64,000 bases of DNA from a virus, in the IMG/VR virus record IMGVR_UViG_3300028588_000016, positions 96,001-160,000 of that record; one strand, 5' to 3'. The notes below the pieces were generated by a model. The model did no database searches, was not told the origin of the DNA, and saw only the letters and a list, made by a program, of their open reading frames with translations. Below, one piece after another: positions 35,750 to 63,170 of this stretch. Both the position numbers and the translations under genes were made by a program. Every line of letters starts with the position of its first letter. Positions within the stretch are counted from its first letter, which is position 1.

Positions 35750-37312
35750 TTATGAATCAGCTAAAACACATTCTGTAGTAAGAAGCATAGACGCTACGGA
35801 TGCAGCGTTTTCTAATGCAACTCTAGTTACTTTAGCCGGATCAATGATACCGTCTTTAACTAGGTCTGTGATTTCTTCATCAAGTACATTATATCCATAA
35901 TTGACACTTGTGTATTGTTCTAGATTATGTAGTTCTGTTTTGGCATCAATACCTGCGTTATTTAGTATAGCAGTCATAGGTACTCTTAAAGATTCTTTAA
36001 CAATTCTGTAACCGATACTAAAATCGTTATCTTGATGATCTGAACTTAGTTCATCGTAAGCGTGATAAAGCGTAGCACCACCACCTGCAACAATACCTTC
36101 TTCGATTGCAGCCTTAGTAGCAGCTAGAGCGTCATCTATTCTGTCAGTCTTTTCGCGTAATTCAATTTCTGAACCTGCACCGATATAGATAATTCCTATT
36201 CCACCATCTAACTTAGCAATACGATCTCTAAGTTTTTCTTTATCCCAATCTTCTTTAGTTGTAGATAATTGTTGTTGTAAGATATTTACTCTTTCAGTAA
36301 TAGCTTCTTTATCGGTAGCGTGCTTAATGAATGTAGTTTTCTCTTTACCAACGATTACTTTATTAGCGAAACCTAAATCGGCCATTGTGGCTTTGTCTAA
36401 CTTCATGCCATCTGCTTCACTAATTAAAGTAGCGCCAGTTATAATAGCTAAATCTTCTAAGTATGCACGTCTTGTTTCGTTAAAACCAGGTGCTTTAATA
36501 GCGGCAAATTTAATTATACCTTGATTAGCGTTTAATATTAAGCTACTTAAAGCTTCTCCTTCTAAGTCTTCGCACACAAGTAACATTGGCTTATCTAGCT
36601 TAGCTACTTGTTCTAAGATTGGAAGAATTTGTTTTATGTTAGTTACTTTTCTATCAAATAATAAAATAGCAACATCTTCTAATTCTGCTTGCATCTTACC
36701 CATATCAGTTACGAAATGAGCAGATATGTAACCTCTGTCAATCTCAACGCCATTAACAATTTCTACATAAGTAGAAGTGTTTTGACTTTGAGCAGTTTTA
36801 ACTACACCGTTTTTACCTACAGCTTCAATAGCTGTTGAGATAAGTTCACCGATATATTCATCGTTATTGGCAGATACTGTAGCTACTTGTTGAATTACTT
36901 CTTTAGTGTGTACACTTTGACGCACATTCTTTATAAAGCTAGTAACTTGTTTAACAGCAGCATCCATACCTTTTTTAATTCCCATAGGATTAACACCGTT
37001 CTTAACGTGAGGTAATCCTAATTCGATCATACTTTGTGCTAATACTGTAGCAGTAGTAGTTCCATCTCCCGCTTGATCTGCTTGTCTTGAAGCAACATCT
37101 TTTACCATTTCCACACCCATATTTTGTAATGAGTCATTTAGTGTTACAGCTTTAGCAACTGTTACACCATCTTTAGTCATTACAGGTGATCCATTTCTGT
37201 CGATAACTACCGTTCGTCCTTTTGGACCTAGAGTTACCTTTACTGCATTCGCTAAAATATCAACGCCTTCTTTCAGACCTTGTCTAGCTTCATTCCCATA
37301 TATTGCTTTCAC
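35750..37312 (-). CDS. groEL: chaperonin GroEL
   Basis: VKVTLGPKGR, TKDGVTVAK, AGDGTTTATVLA, GIIDPAKVTRVALENAAS; GTG start; no GGM tail. Confidence 0.95.
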   Translation of the reverse strand: MKAIYGNEARQGLKEGVDILANAVKVTLGPKGRTVVIDRNGSPVMTKDGVTVAKAVTLNDSLQNMGVEMVKDVASRQADQAGDGTTTATVLAQSMIELGLPHVKNGVNPMGIKKGMDAAVKQVTSFIKNVRQSVHTKEVIQQVATVSANNDEYIGELISTAIEAVGKNGVVKTAQSQNTSTYVEIVNGVEIDRGYISAHFVTDMGKMQAELEDVAILLFDRKVTNIKQILPILEQVAKLDKPMLLVCEDLEGEALSSLILNANQGIIKFAAIKAPGFNETRRAYLEDLAIITGATLISEADGMKLDKATMADLGFANKVIVGKEKTTFIKHATDKEAITERVNILQQQLSTTKEDWDKEKLRDRIAKLDGGIGIIYIGAGSEIELREKTDRIDDALAATKAAIEEGIVAGGGATLYHAYDELSSDHQDNDFSIGYRIVKESLRVPMTAILNNAGIDAKTELHNLEQYTSVNYGYNVLDEEITDLVKDGIIDPAKVTRVALENAASVASMLLTTECVLADS

Positions 37313-37558: not shown

Positions 37559-37570
37559 ATTTTTAATTTG

Positions 37571-37644
37571 AGCATCCGAACGGCCTCGAACCGATAACCT
37601 CCGCGTTACAAAGGCGGTGCTCTACCTACTTGAGCTACAGATGC
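37571..37644 (-). tRNA. tRNA-Thr(UGU)
   Basis: Cloverleaf folded by hand; loop TT-TGT-AA. Confidence 0.85.
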
Positions 37645-37719
37645 AGGAGCAGACGAATTTATATACCGGCAGTTAATTGTCCACAGCTCCGGTGTGTACT
37701 TTAAATTGTTAGAAGGGTG

Positions 37720-37792
37720 TAGCCCGCCAGGGAATCGAACCCTGATCTGCTGAGGGAAAGTCAACCGTCCTAAACCGTTAGACGAACGGGCC
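37720..37792 (-). tRNA. tRNA-Glu(UUC)
   Basis: Cloverleaf; loop CT-TTC-CC. Confidence 0.85.
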
Positions 37793-37917
37793 ATTTTACT
37801 TTTTATAATAACCTGAGAAGTATAACTCCGCCAACCTACGATTTGGAGGGAGAAGTGTGCATAGAAGAGGCACTCCCTATCTTCGATCCTTACTCGTGCA
37901 CAAGCAGAGGGCTAATG

Positions 37918-37991
37918 TTGCGGGAGGTCGGATTCGAACCGACGATTTCAGGCTTATGAGACCTACGAGATAACCACTTCTCTACTCCGCA
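37918..37991 (-). tRNA. tRNA-Met(CAU), initiator-like, one extra C in acceptor 3' strand
   Basis: Loop CT-CAT-AA; TGCGGAG pairs with CTCC(C)GCA. Confidence 0.75.
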
Positions 37992-38001
37992 ATCTATTTG
38001 T

Positions 38002-38259
38002 TTATTTTGTTTGTAGTTCTTCTTGTTTCAGATCATGAACTATTTTATCAATTAAAGCACGTTCAGCAGCTTCTGCTTCATAAGCTTTAGCCATAGCACC
38101 CATAGTTTCAGCTTCAATTTCATAAACTTCACCTGTTTCGTAATCTAATAAAGCTGTAGTCAATAGATCGGCTTTAAACCTAGGATTCTCACAGATTGAA
38201 TCTGGACAAACCTCATCCTCTGATACGTAATCAAAGTCTTCAATACTTGTTATTTCCAT
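38002..38259 (-). CDS. hypothetical acidic protein
   Basis: 85 aa; ATG abuts 3' end of tRNA-Leu. Confidence 0.6.
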   Translation of the reverse strand: MEITSIEDFDYVSEDEVCPDSICENPRFKADLLTTALLDYETGEVYEIEAETMGAMAKAYEAEAAERALIDKIVHDLKQEELQTK

Positions 38260-38260
38260 G

Positions 38261-38336
38261 TAGCCTTGGAGAGACTCGAACTCTCAAAATCTCTTGATCC
38301 TAAGTCAAGCGGCTTTACCAATTTACCCACAAAGCT
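38261..38336 (-). tRNA. tRNA-Leu(UAG), short variable region
   Basis: Cloverleaf; loop CT-TAG-GA. Confidence 0.85.
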
Positions 38337-38339
38337 ATG

Positions 38340-38411
38340 TTATCCTATATAGATTCGAACTACAATCTTCTGAACCAAAATCAGACGTGCTAACCGTTGC
38401 ACCATAGGATA
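38340..38411 (-). tRNA. tRNA-Gln(UUG)
   Basis: Cloverleaf; loop TT-TTG-GT. Confidence 0.85.
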
Positions 38412-38469
38412 GTATGCAGGAGCGTCACTTCCTGCGATTTAACGACGCCCTGTAACAATTGGGAGAAGG

Positions 38470-38772
38470 TTACGCTTTTCGGATTCTTAATCCATTAATA
38501 TAGTCAGTAATTGAATCTCTATAATTAGGAGACAATTTAGATAGTTCTTCTATAACAGCTTCATAGACATCTTTAACAGGACGAATCACGTAGTGACTGT
38601 CAGATTCTCCTACACCTTCATTATGAATAGTACAAAGGTTACTATCGTATCCTAAGTTTTCTATAAATGTACGTGCTAGTTTATCTCTAACGTCGTCTGT
38701 TCCGTATGCTACTGTAGCACGTATTACTGGTTTCATTAAACCATCAAAATCATAAGTTACTTTACTTTTCAT
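38470..38772 (-). CDS. hypothetical protein
   Basis: 100-aa ORF within tRNA cluster. Confidence 0.6.
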   Translation of the reverse strand: MKSKVTYDFDGLMKPVIRATVAYGTDDVRDKLARTFIENLGYDSNLCTIHNEGVGESDSHYVIRPVKDVYEAVIEELSKLSPNYRDSITDYINGLRIRKA

Positions 38773-38808
38773 TGTGTTATTTATAACCTGCCTAAATTGG
38801 TCAAGGTG

Positions 38809-38881
38809 TTCACAACAGAAGAGTCGAACTTCTGACGCCTAGCTCTTCAGGCTAGCGCTCTACCACCTGAGCTAGTTGTGA
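38809..38881 (-). tRNA. tRNA-Phe(GAA)
   Basis: Cloverleaf; loop CT-GAA-GA. Confidence 0.9.
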
Positions 38882-38887
38882 ATATAG

Positions 38888-38961
38888 TTGGCAATACAGG
38901 ATTCGAACCTGTCACCTATTGATTAGAAGTCAATCGCTCTATCCGAATGAGCTAATCGCCA
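38888..38961 (-). tRNA. tRNA-Arg(UCU)
   Basis: Cloverleaf; loop CT-TCT-AA. Confidence 0.9.
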
Positions 38962-38964
38962 ATG

Positions 38965-39039
38965 TAGACAATGCAGGATTTGAACCTGCGACATCGAAAG
39001 TATCAGTTTCGCGCTCTAACCAGGCTGAGCTAATTGTCT
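38965..39039 (-). tRNA. tRNA-Ile(GAU)
   Basis: Cloverleaf; loop CT-GAT-AC. Confidence 0.9.
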
Positions 39040-39341
39040 ATTCTGTATGCTTTACGTCTTTCAGCCGAAGTAAGATCGTCGTTAAGCAATAAATTCTTAC
39101 ATCTTTTAATCTCTTCCTTAGTAGGCTTCCTGAAGCAGTCTATGTTTCTATAGAAGTCTACAAATGGAATATGACGTCCCAAAGTATAGAAATCATCCAT
39201 AACGTTATTTAAGAAGTAATAGTAATAAAGTATTTGTCCAACTCTAACATGCAAAGGATTATCTTTAATACATACCCAAATAGGAACTCCATACTCAGTT
39301 TCATGTGCCTCTTGTAACCAAGAATCTAATATTTGTTTCAT
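39030..39341 (-). CDS. hypothetical protein (103 aa)
   Basis: ATG 39341 abuts tRNA-Val 3' end; TAG stop lies inside tRNA-Ile. Confidence 0.6.
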   Translation of the reverse strand: MKQILDSWLQEAHETEYGVPIWVCIKDNPLHVRVGQILYYYYFLNNVMDDFYTLGRHIPFVDFYRNIDCFRKPTKEEIKRCKNLLLNDDLTSAERRKAYRIDN

Positions 39342-39342
39342 G

Positions 39343-39416
39343 TAGAGAATATAGGGTTCGAACCTATGATCCTTCGGATGTAAACCGAATGCTTTCAACC
39401 GCTAAGCTAATTCTCT
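39343..39416 (-). tRNA. tRNA-Val(UAC)
   Basis: Cloverleaf; loop TT-TAC-AT. Confidence 0.85.
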
Positions 39417-39424
39417 ATTTATTG

Positions 39425-39497
39425 CAGTCCCGATGGGAGTCGAACCCACTAAACCCCGATAGACAGTCGGGTACAACAGCCGTTATGCGCCGAGACC
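39425..39497 (-). tRNA. tRNA-Asp(GUC)
   Basis: Cloverleaf with weak D-arm; loop CT-GTC-TA. Confidence 0.8.
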
Positions 39498-39505
39498 AAG
39501 TTATG

Positions 39506-39590
39506 TGAGATAGGTAGGATTCGAACCTACTGCGTATCTTAGTGACGGATTTACAGTCCGTTGCTACTCCACCGTCGTAGCCGCTATCCC
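39506..39590 (-). tRNA. tRNA-Tyr(GUA)
   Basis: Cloverleaf with long variable region; loop CT-GTA-AA. Confidence 0.9.
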
Positions 39591-39845
39591 AATTATCTTT
39601 TTGTTTAAATCATCTTGGTTAAATGTAACCATCCAGCAACTGCATGACCTGCTTGAAACTAATTAACATATAATTCATGTAAGCTACGTATCGCTTATAA
39701 GAATTAGCATTCGCGGTTCATCGAACTCTTATGTTAGTTTTGTTTAAGAGTTAGTATTCTAATAAGCCTTTGCACAAGGTACGTCTTATTAAATTACCAA
39801 CAGTTTTTATGGTTGTGATCTATTTACAGTTTGTGCTAACTGTTG

Positions 39846-39935
39846 AAGTAGATGTGAGATTCGAACTCACGATGCTCTTGCGAGACATGACGGTTTTCAA
39901 GACCGTTGCAATAAGCCGGACTCTTCCAATCTACT
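39846..39935 (-). tRNA. tRNA-Ser(UGA)
   Basis: Long variable arm; loop CT-TGA-AA. Confidence 0.9.
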
Positions 39936-39936
39936 A

Positions 39937-40012
39937 TGGTGGACACGCACAGATTTGAACTGTATCTTCCGAGGTGCAAGCTCGGCGCATTTGCCATTTA
40001 TGCTAACGGCCC
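39937..40012 (-). tRNA. tRNA-Ala(UGC), encoded CCA, imperfect acceptor stem
   Basis: G3-U70 pair; loop CT-TGC-AC. Confidence 0.75.
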
Positions 40013-40018
40013 ATTTAG

Positions 40019-40106
40019 AAGTGAATACAGGATTCGAACCTGTGGAGGTGATTAACCCCGCTCGGATAGCAACCGAGTACGATAAGCCAGGCTCTGTCAA
40101 TTCACT
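40019..40106 (-). tRNA. tRNA-Ser(GCU)
   Basis: Long variable arm; loop TT-GCT-AT. Confidence 0.9.
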
Positions 40107-40110
40107 ATTG

Positions 40111-40182
40111 AGGGAAAGCTAGGGATCGAACCTAGGACCCAGACTTTAACAAAGTCTCGCTCTACCGCTGAGCTACTTACCC
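40111..40182 (-). tRNA. tRNA-Asn(GUU)
   Basis: Cloverleaf; loop TT-GTT-AA. Confidence 0.85.
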
Positions 40183-40185
40183 TTA

Positions 40186-40374
40186 TTATCTTTGCCAAGC
40201 ACTAAACTTTCTAAGTCTATCAGCTTCGCTTTTAAATTCTTCTGTAGTTCCATTAAAGAACGGATTACGAGATTTAACGTAAAACCAGTTGTCGTATGTT
40301 TCCCATTCTTTCATGTTAACCACATACTCTTGACCAAGTACGTTAAATTTTATTATTTCTTGTTCCATCTTCAT
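40186..40374 (-). CDS. hypothetical protein
   Basis: Small ORF ending 3 nt before tRNA-Asn. Confidence 0.5.
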   Translation of the reverse strand: MKMEQEIIKFNVLGQEYVVNMKEWETYDNWFYVKSRNPFFNGTTEEFKSEADRLRKFSAWQR

Positions 40375-40552
40375 TACGATGTTTAAGTTCTTCTAACAAC
40401 TCTTTAGGAGCGTTATGTTCAGTACAGTAACCACGTTTATTACTAGAACGCATTTTACTTTCTAATTGACACTTAGTGTCAGCAATATAAATGTAAACAT
40501 TATTAACGATGTATTTACATTTAGCCCAATTGGGTTTTGTTAAGTCGATCAT
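40343..40552 (-). CDS. hypothetical protein
   Basis: 69 aa, downstream of a promoter box. Confidence 0.55.
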   Translation of the reverse strand: MIDLTKPNWAKCKYIVNNVYIYIADTKCQLESKMRSSNKRGYCTEHNAPKELLEELKHRNEDGTRNNKI

Positions 40553-40562
40553 TTCAATAGTA

Positions 40563-40570
40563 CAAATGTA
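40563..40570 (-). promoter_or_regulatory. Bacteroidota -7 box TACATTTG
   Basis: Context TTATTCGTACATTTGTA nearly identical to the box at 42140. Confidence 0.6.
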
Positions 40571-40581
40571 CGAATAATAAT

Positions 40582-40818
40582 CTAATTGTTAGTCACTGAA
40601 CTGTCATTACCAGAAGTTCCGTAAATAATATTTGTAAATGTAGTATCATTAAGAAACATCTTATGTAGTTCTTCTAACTCGTTTAGGATTTTTAAAGCAT
40701 TAGCTTCTCCACCACAAGCAGCAGTTACTTCATCTATCTGTACCAGACTTCTAGGTCTTTTGCCGTTATTTCTGTCCATGGATTCCATATGCGTTCGTCT
40801 AAAGGTTCTCGTTTCCAT
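40582..40818 (-). CDS. hypothetical protein
   Basis: 78-aa ORF. Confidence 0.45.
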   Translation of the reverse strand: METRTFRRTHMESMDRNNGKRPRSLVQIDEVTAACGGEANALKILNELEELHKMFLNDTTFTNIIYGTSGNDSSVTNN

Positions 40819-40949
40819 GCTTTATACAATGGATTATTTATGTAGTCTAAAGTCTCTTTCGTAAGAGGATCAGCTGACATAGCTTTAACAAGTGAATCCC
40901 ATTCAGTCTGGAGTTCACCTGTAGCTTGTACGCTTATTAATTGTACCAT
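40734..40949 (-). CDS. hypothetical protein
   Basis: 71-aa ORF overlapping neighbours. Confidence 0.45.
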   Translation of the reverse strand: MVQLISVQATGELQTEWDSLVKAMSADPLTKETLDYINNPLYKAWKREPLDERIWNPWTEITAKDLEVWYR

Positions 40950-41257
40950 TCTGTAGCGGTTAACATATCCAATGTAGCATTACCGGTAGAATATCCCATT
41001 ATTTGATCACTGATCTCTTTATCAATTCTTTTAATCTCGTCAGCATAATGCTGTGCTAATTCTTCTTTATGTTGCTCTTGACTTAAAGTAGGCTTTTGTG
41101 CTTCGAACTTCTCTTGTAATTCAATTACGAAGTTAACAGGAATAACTACTTCTCCACTTTCCATGTGTTGAACGAAGTCTTCGTATGTAGAGTAAAACTG
41201 ACCGTAGTTCAACTGTAACTGTGCGTGTAAGTAATTCTTAAAGGTTTTGTATTTCAT
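40937..41257 (-). CDS. hypothetical protein (106 aa)
   Basis: Start reassigned to ATG 41257, 3 nt after tRNA-His. Confidence 0.6.
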   Translation of the reverse strand: MKYKTFKNYLHAQLQLNYGQFYSTYEDFVQHMESGEVVIPVNFVIELQEKFEAQKPTLSQEQHKEELAQHYADEIKRIDKEISDQIMGYSTGNATLDMLTATEWYN

Positions 41258-41260
41258 ATG

Positions 41261-41333
41261 GGTGTAATAAGGGGATCGAACCCTTGTGCGACGAACCACA
41301 ACCGTCTGCTTTACCTACTAAGCTAAGAACACC
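41261..41333 (-). tRNA. tRNA-His(GUG)
   Basis: G-1/C73 pair; loop TT-GTG-GT. Confidence 0.85.
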
Positions 41334-41344
41334 ATTTATAATTG

Positions 41345-41417
41345 TCAGGAAGGCAAGGCTCGAACTTGCGGCCAAATCGTCCCAAACGATTCAATCTACC
41401 AACTGATATACTTCCTG
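41345..41417 (-). tRNA. tRNA-Pro(UGG)
   Basis: Cloverleaf; loop TT-TGG-GA. Confidence 0.9.
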
Positions 41418-48781: not shown

Positions 48782-49088
48782 GAGTCTGCACTTGATAGGT
48801 CAGGTTTATTAATTACAGTAATTTTGGGACAGTTAACCAAGCCACATCGCGTGACTTGGTTTTCTTTATTAAACAAACTCAACCAGGAGAGTATAAAATA
48901 GTTTGTGATCAGACTGGACGAAACATATATTTATGTCAAACTGTAAAACAATATTTAAAATGGTAATGATTCAAGGAGTTCTTATGTCTTTAGAAGACGC
49001 GAGAGAGTACGATTTCAATTAAACATTTATTAACCCACACAGTTAGAGTAACAGGTTATGCTGACTCTAACTTTAAAATTATTTTAAC

Positions 49089-53650: not shown

Positions 53651-53835
53651 AAAGATTAACAACAATTCTATTACTAATAGGTGCATTTATTTGGTCTGTT
53701 GTGATAATTACAAACCCTCTTACAAGCTTAGCAATTTGTTTGTTTTGCTTAATAGCAGTAGCAATATTAGGAGGTTCTTTCTCCCTTTTCGGTAGTAGAA
53801 AAGCCTTATCAAGAGACATATACGTAAGAAGATGA
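53647..53835 (+). CDS. small membrane protein
   Basis: Two hydrophobic segments. Confidence 0.55.
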   Translation: MKRLTTILLLIGAFIWSVVIITNPLTSLAICLFCLIAVAILGGSFSLFGSRKALSRDIYVRR

Positions 53836-54224
53836 GAGCAGAATTAAAATTTACTGTATTAACAGCTAAATCAAACATACAACAATTTATGCAAGCTGCA
53901 GATGTATTCTCACCTCATAAAGTTTTGGTAGCAATACAAACAATGACTTTAACTGTTGAGTGGCCTCTCATAGATGCCGAATACATAGCTAAATGTCAAG
54001 ATAGTCTTAAACAAGCGTTAGAGAAATCTGGTTCTGTAATAACTTTTATGGGTTATCAAGGAGAAACTGAAGTTCCTGTGTATTTTAGACCAGAAGTACA
54101 ACAAATATCTAATGGTAAATCATGGGGTATGTTTCACAAATTCTTAAAGAGCATTGGCTACGAAGTAGAAACAAACGAATATGTGATGGTAACATCATGC
54201 AAAAGAATGCCGAAAGGTATTTAA
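53832..54224 (+). CDS. hypothetical protein
   Basis: 130-aa ORF. Confidence 0.6.
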   Translation: MRAELKFTVLTAKSNIQQFMQAADVFSPHKVLVAIQTMTLTVEWPLIDAEYIAKCQDSLKQALEKSGSVITFMGYQGETEVPVYFRPEVQQISNGKSWGMFHKFLKSIGYEVETNEYVMVTSCKRMPKGI

Positions 54225-54228
54225 AGAA

Positions 54229-54395
54229 TTAACCATTAACCGGATATCATAGGTAAGTCGGAATCATGACCCGGAACATAAATCTTCACATAAATAAAAC
54301 AAGAGCCTAGTGGAGTACGTGACAATATGTTCTAATAGCACTCGAGAAAGCTCTAGAAGGTAGCTGCGGGAGGCATAACGAAAGTTAATGGTTAA
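54229..54395 (+). ncRNA. candidate structured RNA, unidentified
   Basis: Perfect 12-bp closing stem TTAACCATTAAC/GTTAATGGTTAA with internal stems; no ORF. Confidence 0.5.
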
Positions 54396-54398
54396 AAT

Positions 54399-54482
54399 TA
54401 CGTCTTAGCTCAGTCTGGTCAGAGTGCCCGCATCCGCATTAACATAAGCGGGAGGTCCGAGGTTCGAATCCTTGAGACGTAA
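54399..54482 (+). tRNA. tRNA-like gene with 16-nt anticodon loop (possibly CAU-derived)
   Basis: Perfect acceptor TACGTCT/AGACGTA, D-arm, T-arm TTCGAAT; stem CCCGC/GCGGG encloses ATCCGCATTAACATAA. Confidence 0.8.
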
Positions 54483-54561
54483 CGACGTTACTAGCTAAAC
54501 GTCATTTGAGTACCGTTTTCGTTTAAATGGTGTGCAGGTTCTAGACGCCCTGCACACAACT

Positions 54562-54634
54562 TACACCGTAGCTCAGTTGGTAGAGCTTCCCGCTCTTAAC
54601 GGGAAAGTCCTTGGTTCGAGTCCAAGCGGTGTAA
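54562..54634 (+). tRNA. tRNA-Lys(CUU)
   Basis: Cloverleaf; loop CT-CTT-AA. Confidence 0.92.
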
Positions 54635-54639
54635 CAATA

Positions 54640-54712
54640 GACAATGTGGCTCGAGTGGCTAGGCGGCAGACTGCAACTCTGTCCTACAGCGGTTCGAATC
54701 CGTTCATTGTCT
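54640..54712 (+). tRNA. tRNA-Cys(GCA)
   Basis: Cloverleaf; loop CT-GCA-AC; U73. Confidence 0.9.
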
Positions 54713-54859
54713 CATTAATTGAATAACAGTATGAAACAAGCAAATAGCGGCTTTATGCACAGCACGCGAAAAATAAATCACTTCGAAACCGACTATCGGG
54801 AAAGCTTGGAAGGTCTGAATGCAAGCTTGTTATATCTGACTGCAGAGAAGATATAATAT

Positions 54860-55120
54860 GTGAGGACGTAGAGGAACACTATTAAACAATAATTGCTAAA
54901 CCCTGAAAGAAACTACGAGGTAACTCGTAGAATGGATGCTGTCATATGACTTACACAGCTATATACCATTGGGAGTGTCAAGCTAGATCCTTATTATCGA
55001 GTGCTGAAGATAATGAGGATGCTAAAGCAAGGGGTGAGAGCCCTGCAGTCACAATCATAAAGATTGAGAGCGTTAATTTAGATAGCAATTAGAGGGCGCG
55101 ATGCCCTCTATTGTTTTTAA
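54860..55120 (+). ncRNA. candidate multi-branched structured RNA, unidentified
   Basis: Closing stems AAACAAT/ATTGTTT and AATTGCTA/TAGCAATT enclosing five hairpins, two with GNRA loops. Confidence 0.6.
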
Positions 55121-55597: not shown

Positions 55598-55972
55598 ATG
55601 GCAGAAGGATGCAGTGATGGAAACAGAGTCTTTCCTAACACAACAAATCGATTTGATATACCTTTCAATCCACGGGTTGAGAGGTTTTCTAATACAAATC
55701 CTATAATAATTAGGAACTGGGAAGGAGATCCAGTTAAATGTGGCATATTGAGAAGTAAACTCATGAGAACAGGTAAACCGTGCTTTATTGGCGAAGGTTT
55801 CCTATTTGGTTACGGAGAAGGAATAGTAGAGTACAATCCTATGGATAATACTTGTGCTCCACCTCCTGTTGAGAATGCTGACTTAGATACACTAACTCCA
55901 GCTCTATTAACGGTCATGACGGCACTTGTGTTGTTGAGACCTAAACGTTTACTTAGATGGTTTAACAAATAA
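55598..55972 (+). CDS. C-terminally anchored membrane protein
   Basis: Pro linker, hydrophobic helix, basic tail. Confidence 0.55.
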   Translation: MAEGCSDGNRVFPNTTNRFDIPFNPRVERFSNTNPIIIRNWEGDPVKCGILRSKLMRTGKPCFIGEGFLFGYGEGIVEYNPMDNTCAPPPVENADLDTLTPALLTVMTALVLLRPKRLLRWFNK

Positions 55973-56524: not shown

Positions 56525-56742
56525 TGGCAATTAACTTAACTACATTAAGAGAACAACATAACATCGAAGTTATGATTAAGTCTTGGAAAGAAGGTGGCGA
56601 TATTGTCTATGTATATAGCGTAAACGAATTAGGAAAACCCTCTAAATACAGTTTAGAAAACAAGTCTCTAACTTATCGTGAAGCACTAGCTAAAGCGTTT
56701 AACAAAGCTAACGAACAAATTCAAAATGAAAAGAGAATTTAA
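56524..56742 (+). CDS. hypothetical protein
   Basis: 72-aa ORF. Confidence 0.55.
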   Translation: MAINLTTLREQHNIEVMIKSWKEGGDIVYVYSVNELGKPSKYSLENKSLTYREALAKAFNKANEQIQNEKRI

Positions 56743-57907
56743 ATTAATAAAAGAGTATCCAGGTTCTCCTAAGAAAGGTGCTGTAATTACAGAATCATTA
56801 CGCGTTACTATAAACAATAGTAGAACAGCGAACAAGGAAGAGAATCAATACACTATCAAAGTGGACAGTCAACACTGTGACGGTTGTAGATTCAATATAA
56901 AGAACCCACAAGACTTCCCAGAATTCTGGCAAGAGGTTACTAAGGATTACGAAATATTATCCTTTACAAACGAAGCTGGTAGTATCTTTACTAGAACTGA
57001 AGATAGAAGATATTGGTTAAATCATCATCCTTTTACTGAACGTTGGTTAATTGATAACAAAGATATGTTCATACATTCAGTCAAACGTCTAAAAGACGGA
57101 CAAATCTTTACAGTAGGCGATCTAATTGAACGTAGCCGTGAGTATAAAGTATACAATACTATTAAGAAGATAGAGTTCGGTAGTGACTTGGGTTCTGATC
57201 TTAAAATTCGTATAGACTTTGAAAAGGCTTCTAACAAAACTGAAGAGCATGGTTACAATCGTTTCGCATGGTTAAACGAGTTGAGAAAACCAGAAGAAGA
57301 GAAGTATCTTATTGAATCTTTTATCATTAAGTTACCAAGTGGTAAAGAAGAAGTTGCTTACATACGCGATCAAGGTGGTTATTCAACTATAGACGACGGT
57401 ATTACTTATCCTGCATTAGCTTATCTAAATGAGACCTCTAAAGCTAACGGATGGAGAATACGTTCAGTTATGCGTATCGAAGACAAAGAAGTATTTAAAC
57501 TAGGCGACTTTTGTGCTCCAGATAGTGTAATAACTAACAGAGCACCTATAGATAAGATAGAATTCTGTAAAGCAGGTTATCTTAGATTTCAAGCTAAAGA
57601 TAAGTATTACGTTGGTATTGACAATCTTGTTAAGCTTGAAGTAATACTTAACACAAGAGACGGTGTCAACAAGTACAAAGGTGACAAAGTCTATTGGACT
57701 AAGGAAGACATCTTTTCTACTACTAACATACCTATTAGGCTCAGTGCAGGTTATCGACCTAAACCTGATATGATTTACTTCGATTCAAAAGATTTATTAC
57801 AAGACTATATCACTACAAATAAACCGTTACTGTCTCATCGTGAAGCAACTACGCTAAGTCATTTAGAAATGTATCAGTTAGTTAAATCACGCTTAAATTT
57901 TAAATAA
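56726..57907 (+). CDS. hypothetical protein with two internal repeats
   Basis: IHSVKRLKDGQIFTVGD and IRSVMRIEDKEVFKLGD. Confidence 0.75.
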   Translation: MKREFKLIKEYPGSPKKGAVITESLRVTINNSRTANKEENQYTIKVDSQHCDGCRFNIKNPQDFPEFWQEVTKDYEILSFTNEAGSIFTRTEDRRYWLNHHPFTERWLIDNKDMFIHSVKRLKDGQIFTVGDLIERSREYKVYNTIKKIEFGSDLGSDLKIRIDFEKASNKTEEHGYNRFAWLNELRKPEEEKYLIESFIIKLPSGKEEVAYIRDQGGYSTIDDGITYPALAYLNETSKANGWRIRSVMRIEDKEVFKLGDFCAPDSVITNRAPIDKIEFCKAGYLRFQAKDKYYVGIDNLVKLEVILNTRDGVNKYKGDKVYWTKEDIFSTTNIPIRLSAGYRPKPDMIYFDSKDLLQDYITTNKPLLSHREATTLSHLEMYQLVKSRLNFK

Positions 57908-62777: not shown

Positions 62778-63133
62778 GGGCGCGTTCTTGGTACTTGAGC
62801 GGGTAAGAACTAAAAGAGAAGCATGTAGTGCGTTGTTTGTGTGCACTTAAAAGAAGCATTCACATTTTTAACTGGCACTCCGGTGTACAGAATGGCTGCC
62901 TAGTCTCTAGGAGACGTAGTCATTCGCCCAGAAATGGGTTCGCGATCCATGACACTTGGGATCACATACTCGTGTTTAGACTTTGGCTGCAGTTGTGAGA
63001 CATCTGAACTGCAGATAGTTGTCTGTTTACAACAGAATAGGCCGTTCCTTATAGCCAATAAATGTAGGATAAACATGTAATGAAGGCTTTTACTATTTAC
63101 AACGTGACGAGGGTTCGACTCCCTCCGCGTCCA
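62778..63133 (+). ncRNA. ssrA: tmRNA
   Basis: Acceptor GGGCGCG/CGCGTCC with G3-U70 and A73; T-arm GAGGG-TTCGACT-CCCTC; tag ORF 62874-62903 after TAACT. Confidence 0.9.
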
Positions 63134-63170
63134 CTATGCACATGGTGTGCATCAATTAAATTAAATTACG

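What the first reader, a model, noticed from the sequence alone, without database searches (positions are those of the whole stretch)
54399..54482. tRNA body with a 16-nt anticodon loop
Seen: flawless acceptor, D and T arms and a CCCGC/GCGGG stem, but the loop is ATCCGCATTAACATAA with a tandem CCGCAT-CCGCAT and near-repeat CATTAA/CATAA. Removing 9 nt would give AT-CAT-AA. The intact body argues against simple decay. Inference: a mini-intron tRNA(CAU), a decoy or substrate mimic for anticodon nucleases or tRNA-sensing defences, a synthetase sponge, or a frameshift/stall effector.
Basis: partly seen in the sequence, partly recalled or inferred. Interest (0 to 1): 0.75.

Follow-up and report, generated by a model that had tools for sequence, protein, structure and literature searches.

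The report
Phage tRNA gene with swollen anticodon loop
A 183-kb crAss-like phage from leaf litter carries an otherwise perfect transfer-RNA gene whose codon-reading loop holds 16 bases instead of 7, most likely because a small duplication disabled a methionine-type tRNA, so it is a curiosity rather than a new mechanism.

Summary
Window 54399-54482 (+) is a full tRNA cloverleaf (Rfam RF00005, 51 bits). Its anticodon stem CCCGC/GCGGG closes an unstructured 16-nt loop, ATCCGCATTAACATAA. An independent assembly of the probable source run gives the same sequence.

Removing 9 nt restores AUCAUAA, and ARAGORN in intron mode then calls tRNA-Met(CAT). A tRNA-Met of an unrelated 310-kb phage has exactly that loop. 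The insert carries a duplication signature: CCGCAT twice in tandem (p about 0.002) and CAT three times at a 6-nt period (p about 0.0002).

Nothing supports splicing. The loop has no hairpin or bulge-helix-bulge motif. The phage encodes no detectable RtcB, Rnl1, Rnl2 or tRNA-intron endonuclease. No single excision register works for both this gene and a second loop-expanded tRNA in the same genome (19-nt loop, outside the window).

No orthologue could be found, so conservation and expression remain untested. The phage is a near-singleton.

Best reading (about 0.5): a slippage-disabled, non-decoding derivative of a phage tRNA(CAU) that is still processed within an RNA-rich operon. Rivals are a retained tRNA-shaped RNA like T4 species 1/2 RNAs (0.25) and an unknown mini-intron (0.15). 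Earlier notes of this scan describe 21-108-nt tRNA inserts in other phages. Nothing this short or unstructured was listed there.

The parts
54399..54482 (+). tRNA-shaped gene, 84 nt including discriminator A, no encoded CCA
   Evidence: Rfam RF00005 51.0 bits. ARAGORN -i calls tRNA-Met(cat) with a 9-nt insert. The cloverleaf is the minimum-free-energy fold.
54427..54452 (+). Anticodon arm: 5-bp stem CCCGC/GCGGG closing a 16-nt open loop (54432-54447)
   Evidence: Sequence. The arm alone folds as the stem plus an empty loop (-8.2 kcal/mol). The next register, in which the second CCGC pairs, scores -5.6. No hairpin or bulge-helix-bulge forms.
54428..54439 (+). Perfect tandem hexamer CCGCAT-CCGCAT; with TAACAT it gives CAT three times at a 6-nt period
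   Evidence: Sequence. Simulation gives p about 0.002-0.003 for the tandem hexamer and about 0.0002 for the CAT periodicity.
54434..54442 (+). The 9 extra nucleotides CCGCATTAA (equally 54435-54443, CGCATTAAC); removal leaves the loop AUCAUAA
   Evidence: ARAGORN -i. The same 7-nt loop occurs in tRNA-Met(cat) at L052:13954-14030. Other registers with a purine at position 37 would give CCU or CCG, by my enumeration from the sequence.
54229..54395 (+). Structured non-coding leader ending 3 nt before the tRNA; its 3' strand GTTAATG (54384-54390) is complementary to loop residues CATTAAC (54437-54443)
   Evidence: The fold of 54225-54398 gives -37.7 kcal/mol, z = -2.4, with a 13-bp closing stem. 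A 7-nt complementarity is within chance (about 0.1).
54562..54635 (+). Normal tRNA-Lys(CTT), 79 nt downstream on the same strand
   Evidence: ARAGORN; Rfam 68.5 bits.
54640..54713 (+). Normal tRNA-Cys(GCA)
   Evidence: ARAGORN; Rfam 44.7 bits.
54800..55115 (+). Strongly structured non-coding RNA that ends the same intergenic block, closed by a terminator-like hairpin at 55090-55110 plus a T run
   Evidence: Fold z = -4.3. Terminator-like site. A 175-nt metatranscriptome contig, 100% identical, lies at 54812-54986.

Best explanation
This is a phage tRNA gene of the CAU (methionine-type) kind. Its anticodon loop was enlarged from AUCAUAA to 16 nt by a 9-nt insertion of replication-slippage type. 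The starting sequence C-AU-CAU-AA already contained a CAU-CAU repeat, which would make it prone to slippage. Because the acceptor, D and T arms are intact, the RNA is probably still transcribed with its neighbours in one unit: structured leader, this gene, tRNA-Lys, tRNA-Cys, structured RNA, terminator. It is probably also cut out by RNase P and 3' trimming and given CCA. An open 16-nt loop cannot present an anticodon in the ribosomal A site. It also removes the anticodon that MetRS or IleRS must read. The product is therefore most likely a translationally inert pseudo-tRNA. SHOWN: the cloverleaf, the loop, the repeat signature, the agreement of two assemblies, and the lack of loop structure. 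Also shown: no detectable match to the RNA-ligase (RtcB, Rnl2) and splicing-endonuclease families searched in the phage; the Rnl1 search was uninformative. INFERRED: the ancestral CAU identity, the slippage origin, processing of the transcript, and inability to decode.
For: (1) The body is a complete tRNA: Rfam 51 bits despite the insert, with all tertiary positions present.
(2) Removing 9 nt gives AUCAUAA and ARAGORN then calls tRNA-Met(cat). A tRNA-Met(cat) with that same loop, and stems differing by compensatory changes, exists in a 310-kb phage contig.
(3) The genome has two other CAT tRNAs. One is initiator-like (A11-U24, window 37917-37991). The other is Ile2-like (its antisense strand hits the plastid trnI-CAU-derived model RF04354 at 41 bits). 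The elongator-Met slot is therefore the one this gene would fill.
(4) The loop carries a tandem CCGCAT repeat (p about 0.002) and CAT three times at a 6-nt period (p about 0.0002). That is a mutational signature, not a designed structure.
(5) The loop is unstructured.
(6) The phage has no RtcB, Rnl2-type ligase or EndA-type endonuclease.
(7) The three tRNA(CAT) genes found in the walked part (about 41 kb) of the closest long relative (terminase 62% identical), and the tRNA(CAT) genes in a more distant relative, all have 7-nt loops.
(8) By established knowledge, natural and engineered expanded loops that still decode have 8-10 nt, not 16.
Against: A second tRNA-shaped gene in the same genome also has an enlarged anticodon loop (19 nt; genome 171519-171611). 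Two independent disabling insertions in the same loop within one phage suggest either a loop-specific mechanism or selection for a body without an anticodon. Detection bias explains part of this, because the covariance model tolerates insertions there and not in stems. The body shows no decay at all. The gene's U1-A72 acceptor start matches the style of the phage's other tRNAs, so it is an old resident. If the insertion took two steps (6 nt plus 3 nt), both fell in the loop and none in the 68-nt body. Neither expression nor population variation could be examined.
Confidence: 0.5

Rival explanations
1. This is a retained tRNA-shaped RNA that is not meant to decode. The phage keeps the tRNA body as a handle for RNase P, 3' processing and CCA addition in an operon of structured RNAs. 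Alternatively it acts as a mimic or decoy for a host factor that recognises the tRNA body rather than the anticodon. It would be the smallest departure from a real tRNA in the class typified by T4 species 1 and 2 RNAs.
For: The body is intact with every tertiary position present. A second loop-expanded tRNA-shaped gene sits in the same genome, again between non-coding stretches and next to a normal tRNA. The gene lies 3 nt after a structured leader, in a block whose downstream RNA is strongly structured (z = -4.3) and present in a metatranscriptome. Relatives of this phage clade also carry aberrant tRNA-like genes: an initiator-like tRNA with a class-II-type variable hairpin and a truncated tRNA-like element. 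T4 rnaC and rnaD are annotated stable RNAs within a tRNA cluster.
Against: No conserved family could be found for this element. The perfect tandem repeat in the loop looks like a fresh mutation rather than a selected sequence. Neighbouring normal tRNAs would serve equally well as processing handles. Known anticodon nucleases read the anticodon loop itself, so a decoy with a foreign loop has no obvious target (PMC10264068). No complementarity of 12 nt or more to the loop exists elsewhere in the genome.
Confidence: 0.25
2. The 9 nt are a mini-intron. They would be cut out by an unidentified host or phage endonuclease and the halves rejoined, for example by host RtcB. The product would be a working tRNA-Met(CAU). 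This would place it alongside the unexplained inserts reported in tRNAs of Lak megaphages and other large phages.
For: Excision restores a canonical loop AUCAUAA that occurs in a real phage tRNA-Met. One of the two equivalent registers is 34/35, the position reported by earlier notes of this scan for 21-108-nt inserts in jumbo-phage tRNAs (AI notes, not verified here). Devoto et al. 2019 describe 'enigmatic' introns in tRNAs of phages that infect Bacteroidota (PMC6784885). RtcB is present in Bacteroides thetaiotaomicron, one of the search tool's named control genomes. This would be the phage's only elongator-Met tRNA, and ATG makes up 24.8 per 1000 codons.
Against: The insert has no structure an endonuclease could recognise: no hairpin, no bulge-helix-bulge, no mini-tRNA shape. 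It is far too short for a group I intron. The phage lacks RtcB, Rnl2 and EndA homologues; the Rnl1 search was uninformative because its control was silent. The second expanded tRNA needs a different register (37/38) to keep a purine at position 37. No single ruler-type rule therefore fits both genes (my enumeration). The Lak inserts shown are 79-93 nt long, and the paper reports them as identical across cohorts. This one is 9 nt and a singleton.
Confidence: 0.15
3. The RNA still takes part in translation with its expanded loop, for example as a frameshift or stalling effector or a multi-base decoder.
For: There is only the general precedent that 8-10-nt anticodon loops can read four- or five-base codons (reviews found).
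Against: A 16-nt open loop lacks the stacked 3' side and U-turn geometry needed in the A site (established knowledge). MetRS and IleRS need the anticodon for charging. No programmed site in the genome was found to match the loop.
Confidence: 0.03
4. The 9 nt are an assembly or sequencing artefact, or a minor allele.
For: Only one sample holds the DNA. Contigs drop rare variants.
Against: Two assemblies (the IMG/VR record and the Logan contig) agree exactly over 1.3 kb at depth about 18, with no indel reported at the site. Short-read assemblers do not typically create 9-nt insertions in unique sequence.
Confidence: 0.04

Closest known systems
Ordinary phage-encoded tRNA-Met(CAU), e.g. the tRNA-Met(cat) at L052:13954-14030 of a 310-kb IMG/VR phage contig
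   Same: Same cloverleaf, discriminator A73, T loop TTCGAAT and G50.U64 wobble. It has the loop AUCAUAA that this gene would have without its 9 extra nt. Stem differences are compensatory.
   Different: This gene has 16 rather than 7 loop residues, so no defined anticodon. Part of the similarity was forced by the search pattern. In bacteria the same acceptor/D/T pattern belongs to tRNA-Thr and tRNA-Arg(CCT), so the body alone does not fix the isotype.
Phage tRNA-like stable RNAs: T4 species 1 and species 2 RNAs (rnaC, rnaD; NC_000866 70908-71171)
   Same: They are encoded inside a phage tRNA cluster, and their function is still unknown (my knowledge). The T4 record annotates them as 'small, stable RNA'. 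That they are tRNA-sized or slightly larger RNAs released by tRNA processing enzymes is also from my knowledge.
   Different: rnaC and rnaD are 139 and 119 nt with large rearranged arms and are shown to accumulate. This gene is a canonical tRNA plus only 9 nt, and its expression is unknown.
'Enigmatic' tRNA introns of Lak megaphages (Devoto et al. 2019, PMC6784885)
   Same: Inserts at the anticodon in tRNA genes of phages that infect Bacteroidota. They are found only when intron-aware settings are used. The removal route is unknown.
   Different: The Lak inserts shown are 79-93 nt, and at least one may itself encode a tRNA. The paper reports that the same insert is typically identical across cohorts. 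Here the insert is 9 nt, unstructured, repeat-derived and seen in one genome only.
Frameshift-suppressor and engineered tRNAs with expanded anticodon loops (8-10 nt)
   Same: Extra residues in the anticodon loop of an otherwise normal tRNA.
   Different: Those have 1-3 extra residues and still decode. This gene has 9 extra residues.
Phage tRNAs with anticodon-loop substitutions proposed to evade host anticodon nucleases (van den Berg et al. 2023, PMC10264068)
   Same: A phage tRNA whose anticodon loop departs from the host-type sequence.
   Different: Those are point substitutions within a 7-nt loop of working tRNAs, and the paper mentions no insertions. This is a loop expansion that should abolish decoding.

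Membership tests
tRNA (Rfam RF00005) | Cloverleaf with 7-bp acceptor, D, anticodon and T arms and conserved tertiary residues | tested here: met
   51.0 bits against a gathering score of 29. U8, A14, G18G19, G15-C48 and the TTCGAAT T loop were read.
tRNA (functional decoder) | 7-nt anticodon loop with U33, a defined anticodon at 34-36 and a purine at 37 | tested here: not met
   The loop has 16 nt. Default ARAGORN rejects it. Three different 7-nt sub-loops (CAU, CCU, CCG) are formally possible.
Archaeal/eukaryal protein-spliced tRNA intron | Bulge-helix-bulge (or relaxed) motif at the exon-intron junctions, usually at 37/38 | tested here: not met
   The arm folds as a stem plus an open loop, with no helix inside the loop. 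The 37/38 register would leave C37.
Archaeal/eukaryal protein-spliced tRNA intron | Splicing endonuclease (EndA/Sen) and RNA ligase available | tested here: not met
   PF01974, PF01139 and PF09414 are absent from the 183-kb phage genome. The controls gave hits for all three families, so the searches could have found them. PF09511 is also absent, but its control was silent. The host genome is unknown.
Group I intron in a bacterial tRNA anticodon loop | Catalytic core P3-P9, typically 200 nt or more | tested here: not met
   The insert is 9 nt. Rfam finds no intron family here.
Lak-type / large-phage tRNA mini-introns | Structured insert (hairpin or mini-tRNA) conserved among related phages | tested here: not met
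   The insert is unstructured. No related copy was found in IMG/VR or JGI metagenomes. tRNA(CAT) genes of relatives have 7-nt loops.
Phage tRNA-like stable RNAs (T4 rnaC/rnaD type) | Encoded in a tRNA cluster, tRNA-like ends, no usable anticodon | tested here: met
   The gene lies in a cluster with tRNA-Lys and tRNA-Cys. It has an intact acceptor and T arm and no defined anticodon.
Phage tRNA-like stable RNAs (T4 rnaC/rnaD type) | Accumulates as a stable processed RNA | not testable with these tools
   The only RNA run holds a contig at 54812-54986 and nothing over the tRNA. Contigs of a metatranscriptome cannot show small RNAs.
Pseudo-tRNA (recently disabled gene) | Disabling lesion with a mutational signature; orthologues intact | tested here: inconclusive
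   The lesion has a tandem-duplication signature. No orthologue could be recovered, because the early region has no homologues in the nearest long relative.

The most novel reading that the evidence does not exclude
The 9 nt (and the 12 nt in the second gene) are the shortest members of a class of protein-processed inserts in phage tRNAs. Alternatively, the phage deliberately keeps tRNA bodies with scrambled anticodon loops as decoys or handles for a host tRNA-binding factor. Either case would mean a tRNA-processing or tRNA-mimicry route in Bacteroidota phages that is not yet described.
Probability: 0.2. Interest if true: 0.7.

Novelty: new member of a known kind. Interest (0 to 1): 0.3.

Why it matters
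If this is simply a slippage-disabled tRNA, it matters mainly for annotation. Intron-aware tRNA finders will call it 'tRNA-Met with intron', and codon-supply analyses would then count a tRNA that probably does not work. It also shows how a CAU-CAU repeat at the stem-loop junction can make a tRNA(CAU) gene prone to slippage. If the loop expansion is instead maintained, this phage would offer the smallest and cleanest test case for two questions. One is how phages use tRNA-shaped RNAs that cannot decode. The other is whether bacteria or their phages can excise very short tRNA inserts. The case for maintenance rests on a second example in the same genome and on the many aberrant tRNAs in this clade. 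Neither question is settled for T4 species 1/2 RNAs or for the Lak megaphage introns.

Tried and rejected
**Search for orthologues**
- Exact-pattern scans anchored on the anticodon arm found nothing in IMG/VR.
- The same kind of scan in JGI metagenomes found only unrelated bacterial tRNA-Asp and tRNA-Pro with the same stem and 7-nt loops.
- The flanking ORFs 53832-54224 and 55598-55972 have no relatives in IMG/VR.
- The nearest sizeable ORF (56726-57907) has no relative above 36% identity among the 5.8 billion non-redundant proteins (clustered at 90% identity) searched.
- blastn of 54000-55000 against 50,697 phage records matched only the tRNA-Lys.
- The closest GenBank phage record (MT835470.1, terminase 45.6% identical) has no tRNAs at all.
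- Walking about 41 kb along a 171.8-kb relative (terminase 62% identical) found normal CAT tRNAs but no homologue of this early region.
- Records behind ENA and JGI loci are not held for whole-record searches.

**Isotype from the body**
- In bacterial genomes the same acceptor/D/T pattern belongs to tRNA-Thr (71 of 80) and tRNA-Arg(CCT) (9 of 80), so the body does not decide the isotype.
- Arginine identity is unlikely because position 20 is U rather than A (my reading, from established ArgRS identity rules).

**Guide or target idea**
- No complementarity of 12 nt or more to either expanded loop exists anywhere in the genome.
- The 7-nt match to the leader is within chance.

**Other checks**
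- The phage encodes no Ro60/TROVE or TilS.
- Bacteroidota-type promoter motifs are not enriched and none lies just upstream.
- Sigma-70-like sites are below the shuffle expectation.
- The RNA run has no contig over the tRNA. This says nothing about expression.
- The Rnl1 search is uninformative because its control was silent.

Full report
**What is there**

The window is bases 96001-160000 of a 183,312-bp IMG/VR virus record, which CheckV rates 100% complete. The large terminase is most similar to those of crAss-like phages. The best GenBank phage match is 45.6% identical, followed by many crAss-like records. The DNA comes from a leaf-litter metagenome. The genome is 35% G+C.

At 54399-54482 (+) the sequence folds into a complete cloverleaf:
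- Acceptor stem TACGTCT/AGACGTA, 7 Watson-Crick pairs.
- D stem GCTC/GAGT, with one G.U.
- Anticodon stem CCCGC/GCGGG.
- Variable loop AGGTC.
- T stem CGAGG/CCTTG, with one G.U, and T loop TTCGAAT.
- Discriminator A.

The standard tertiary positions (U8, A14, G18G19, G15-C48, G26) are all present. Rfam's tRNA model scores 51 bits even though 14 residues sit where it expects 5. Between the anticodon stem strands lie 16 residues, ATCCGCATTAACATAA. ARAGORN ignores the gene by default. With introns allowed, it calls tRNA-Met(cat) with a 9-nt insert.

**Is it an artefact?**

A 16.7-kb Logan contig of run X1 covers 53800-55078 without a single difference, at depth about 18. No indel is reported at the site. 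X1 is probably the sample from which the record was assembled. This rules out an assembler quirk, but it is not an independent population.

**Anatomy of the loop**

The anticodon arm on its own folds as the 5-bp stem plus an empty 16-nt loop (-8.2 kcal/mol). The only competitor pairs the second CCGC with the 3' strand, leaving a 10-nt loop (-5.6 kcal/mol). There is no internal hairpin and no bulge-helix-bulge.

The loop is internally repetitive:
- CCGCAT occurs twice in tandem (54428-54439).
- CAT recurs three times at a 6-nt period: CCG-CAT, CCG-CAT, TAA-CAT.
- In random or shuffled loops these features occur with frequencies of about 0.002-0.003 and 0.0002.

Without the 9 nt the junction would read C-AU-CAU-AA, which already holds a CAU-CAU repeat. 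The simplest origin is therefore replication slippage, possibly in two steps (6 nt plus 3 nt).

**Which tRNA was it?**

Removing 9 nt at 33/34 or 34/35 gives AUCAUAA (anticodon CAU). Two other registers also leave a purine at position 37: AUCCUAA (CCU) and AUCCGAA (CCG). U at position 20 argues against arginine identity, by the established ArgRS requirement for A20.

A pattern scan of IMG/VR for the same acceptor, D and T features found a tRNA-Met(cat) in a 310-kb phage contig (L052:13954-14030). Its loop is exactly AUCAUAA, including the unusual A32. Its stems differ from this gene by compensatory changes.

The genome has two other CAT tRNAs:
- One has the initiator mark A11-U24 (window 37917-37991).
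- The other, at genome 171865-171939, is Ile2-like. Its antisense strand matches the Rfam model RF04354 at 41 bits. My reading is that this model is the complement of plastid trnI-CAU.

The odd gene would thus fill the elongator-Met slot. The body alone is not diagnostic, however. In bacterial genomes the same pattern belongs to tRNA-Thr and tRNA-Arg(CCT).

**Could it be spliced?**

I found nothing to support splicing:
- The insert is unstructured.
- It is far too short for a group I intron.
- The phage has no match to RtcB, Rnl2-type ligase or tRNA-intron endonuclease. The controls gave hits for all three families, so the searches could have found them.
- Rnl1 was also absent, but its control was silent, so that result is uninformative.

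The genome holds a second tRNA-shaped gene with a swollen anticodon loop, outside the window at genome 171519-171611 (Rfam 34.7 bits). Its stem is GCCAA/TTGGC and its loop is ATCCCAGGCACCAGAAGCA, 19 nt. It has a Gly-like D arm, G3.U70 and four extra residues in the variable region. That gene keeps a purine at position 37 only if 12 nt are removed at 37/38 or 38/39. The present gene needs removal at 33/34 to 36/37. No single ruler-type rule fits both.

The introns of Lak megaphage tRNAs shown are 79-93 nt, and the paper reports that the same intron is typically identical across cohorts (PMC6784885). Earlier notes of this scan describe 21-108-nt structured inserts in jumbo-phage tRNAs (I did not verify them). 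This 9-nt insert shares only its position with those.

**Conservation**

Conservation could not be tested, because the phage is close to a singleton:
- Arm-anchored pattern scans found no copy in IMG/VR or in JGI metagenomes.
- The flanking small ORFs have no relatives.
- Terminase relatives reach only 62-69% identity.
- I walked about 41 kb of a 171.8-kb relative. Its early region shares no ORF with this one. It carries three CAT tRNAs with normal loops, an initiator-like tRNA with a class-II-type variable hairpin, and a truncated tRNA-like element.
- A more distant relative has two normal CAT tRNAs.

Relatives therefore show normal loops in CAT tRNAs, but none is a demonstrable orthologue. 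The clade is clearly rich in aberrant tRNA genes.

**Context**

The gene lies in a 1-kb non-coding block on the + strand, in this order:
- a structured leader ending 3 nt before the tRNA (z = -2.4);
- the odd tRNA;
- a 79-nt spacer containing a 9-bp hairpin;
- tRNA-Lys(CTT) and tRNA-Cys(GCA);
- a strongly structured RNA (z = -4.3);
- a terminator-like hairpin.

A metatranscriptome from another leaf-litter study holds a 175-nt contig identical to 54812-54986. No RNA evidence covers the tRNA itself, and none would be expected from such data.

**Verdict**

The most economical reading is a tRNA(CAU) gene whose anticodon loop was expanded by slippage. The result is a transcript that is still processed like a tRNA but cannot be charged by an anticodon-reading synthetase or read a codon. 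I give this about 0.5.

The second expanded-loop gene, the undecayed body and the RNA-operon setting keep a 'retained tRNA-shaped RNA' reading alive at about 0.25. That reading would be analogous to T4 species 1/2 RNAs, whose annotation I checked. An unknown mini-intron route gets about 0.15. Artefact and exotic decoding together get well under 0.1.

The feature is real and somewhat unusual. On present evidence it does not point to a new mechanism.

Noticed in passing
L035:1501-1593 (= genome 171519-171611, + strand; outside the window): A second tRNA-shaped gene with an enlarged anticodon loop. Its stem is GCCAA/TTGGC and its 19-nt loop is ATCCCAGGCACCAGAAGCA. It has a Gly-like D arm, a G3.U70 pair (the alanine identity mark) and a 9-nt variable region. 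Rfam scores it 34.7 bits and ARAGORN -i calls 'Gly(ccc), 12-nt intron at 37/38'. Both expanded loops begin AUCC and end A.
   Followed up: partly
genome 160001-160084 (+), starting one base after the window's end (L027): ARAGORN calls a 'tRNA-Trp(cca)' of 84 nt. It has a class-II-like D arm and a long variable hairpin, and a C.C mismatch at 31:39. This is a Leu/Ser/Tyr-type body carrying a tryptophan anticodon. Rfam scores it 46.3 bits.
   Followed up: no
window 54800-55115 (+): About 300 nt of strongly structured non-coding RNA (z = -4.3) sit downstream of tRNA-Cys and end in a terminator-like hairpin at 55090-55110. A 175-nt contig from a leaf-litter metatranscriptome (a different study) is 100% identical to 54812-54986 at depth 117. 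There is no Rfam family; the best match is BTnc231 at 18.9 bits, far below its threshold.
   Followed up: partly
window 54229-54395 (+): A structured leader closed by a 13-bp stem built from tandem ATTAACC repeats (z = -2.4) ends 3 nt before the odd tRNA. RNase P cleavage of the tRNA would therefore create the leader's 3' end.
   Followed up: partly
window 48876-48942 (+): RAGATH-1 hammerhead ribozyme, 60.7 bits against a gathering score of 56.3, in the early small-ORF region.
   Followed up: no
window 62778-63134 (+): Phage-encoded one-piece tmRNA with the tag GTPVYRMAA (ARAGORN and Rfam, 59.7 bits).
   Followed up: no
window 39940-40012 (-) and 39425-39497 (-): Two tRNAs that ARAGORN misses and Rfam finds. 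They are Ala(TGC), with a shortened T arm, and Asp(GTC). Both have normal 7-nt anticodon loops.
   Followed up: partly
L049:18878-18966 and L050:12335-12393 (171.8-kb relative, NCBI contig JBMFGH010001505): The relative carries an initiator-like tRNA(CAT) (C1.U72, A11-U24) with a class-II-type variable hairpin, 89 nt long. It also carries a truncated tRNA-like element covering model positions 8-63, with a loop that contains UCA.
   Followed up: no
L009:2432-4006 (169-kb ENA contig, distant relative): A phage-encoded Ro60/TROVE-domain protein lies next to a tRNA array. The phage studied here has none.
   Followed up: no
window 35750-37312 (-): Phage-encoded GroEL-type chaperonin (PHROG 5725, E 1.8e-152) directly beside the 17-gene tRNA array at 37570-41417.
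   Followed up: no
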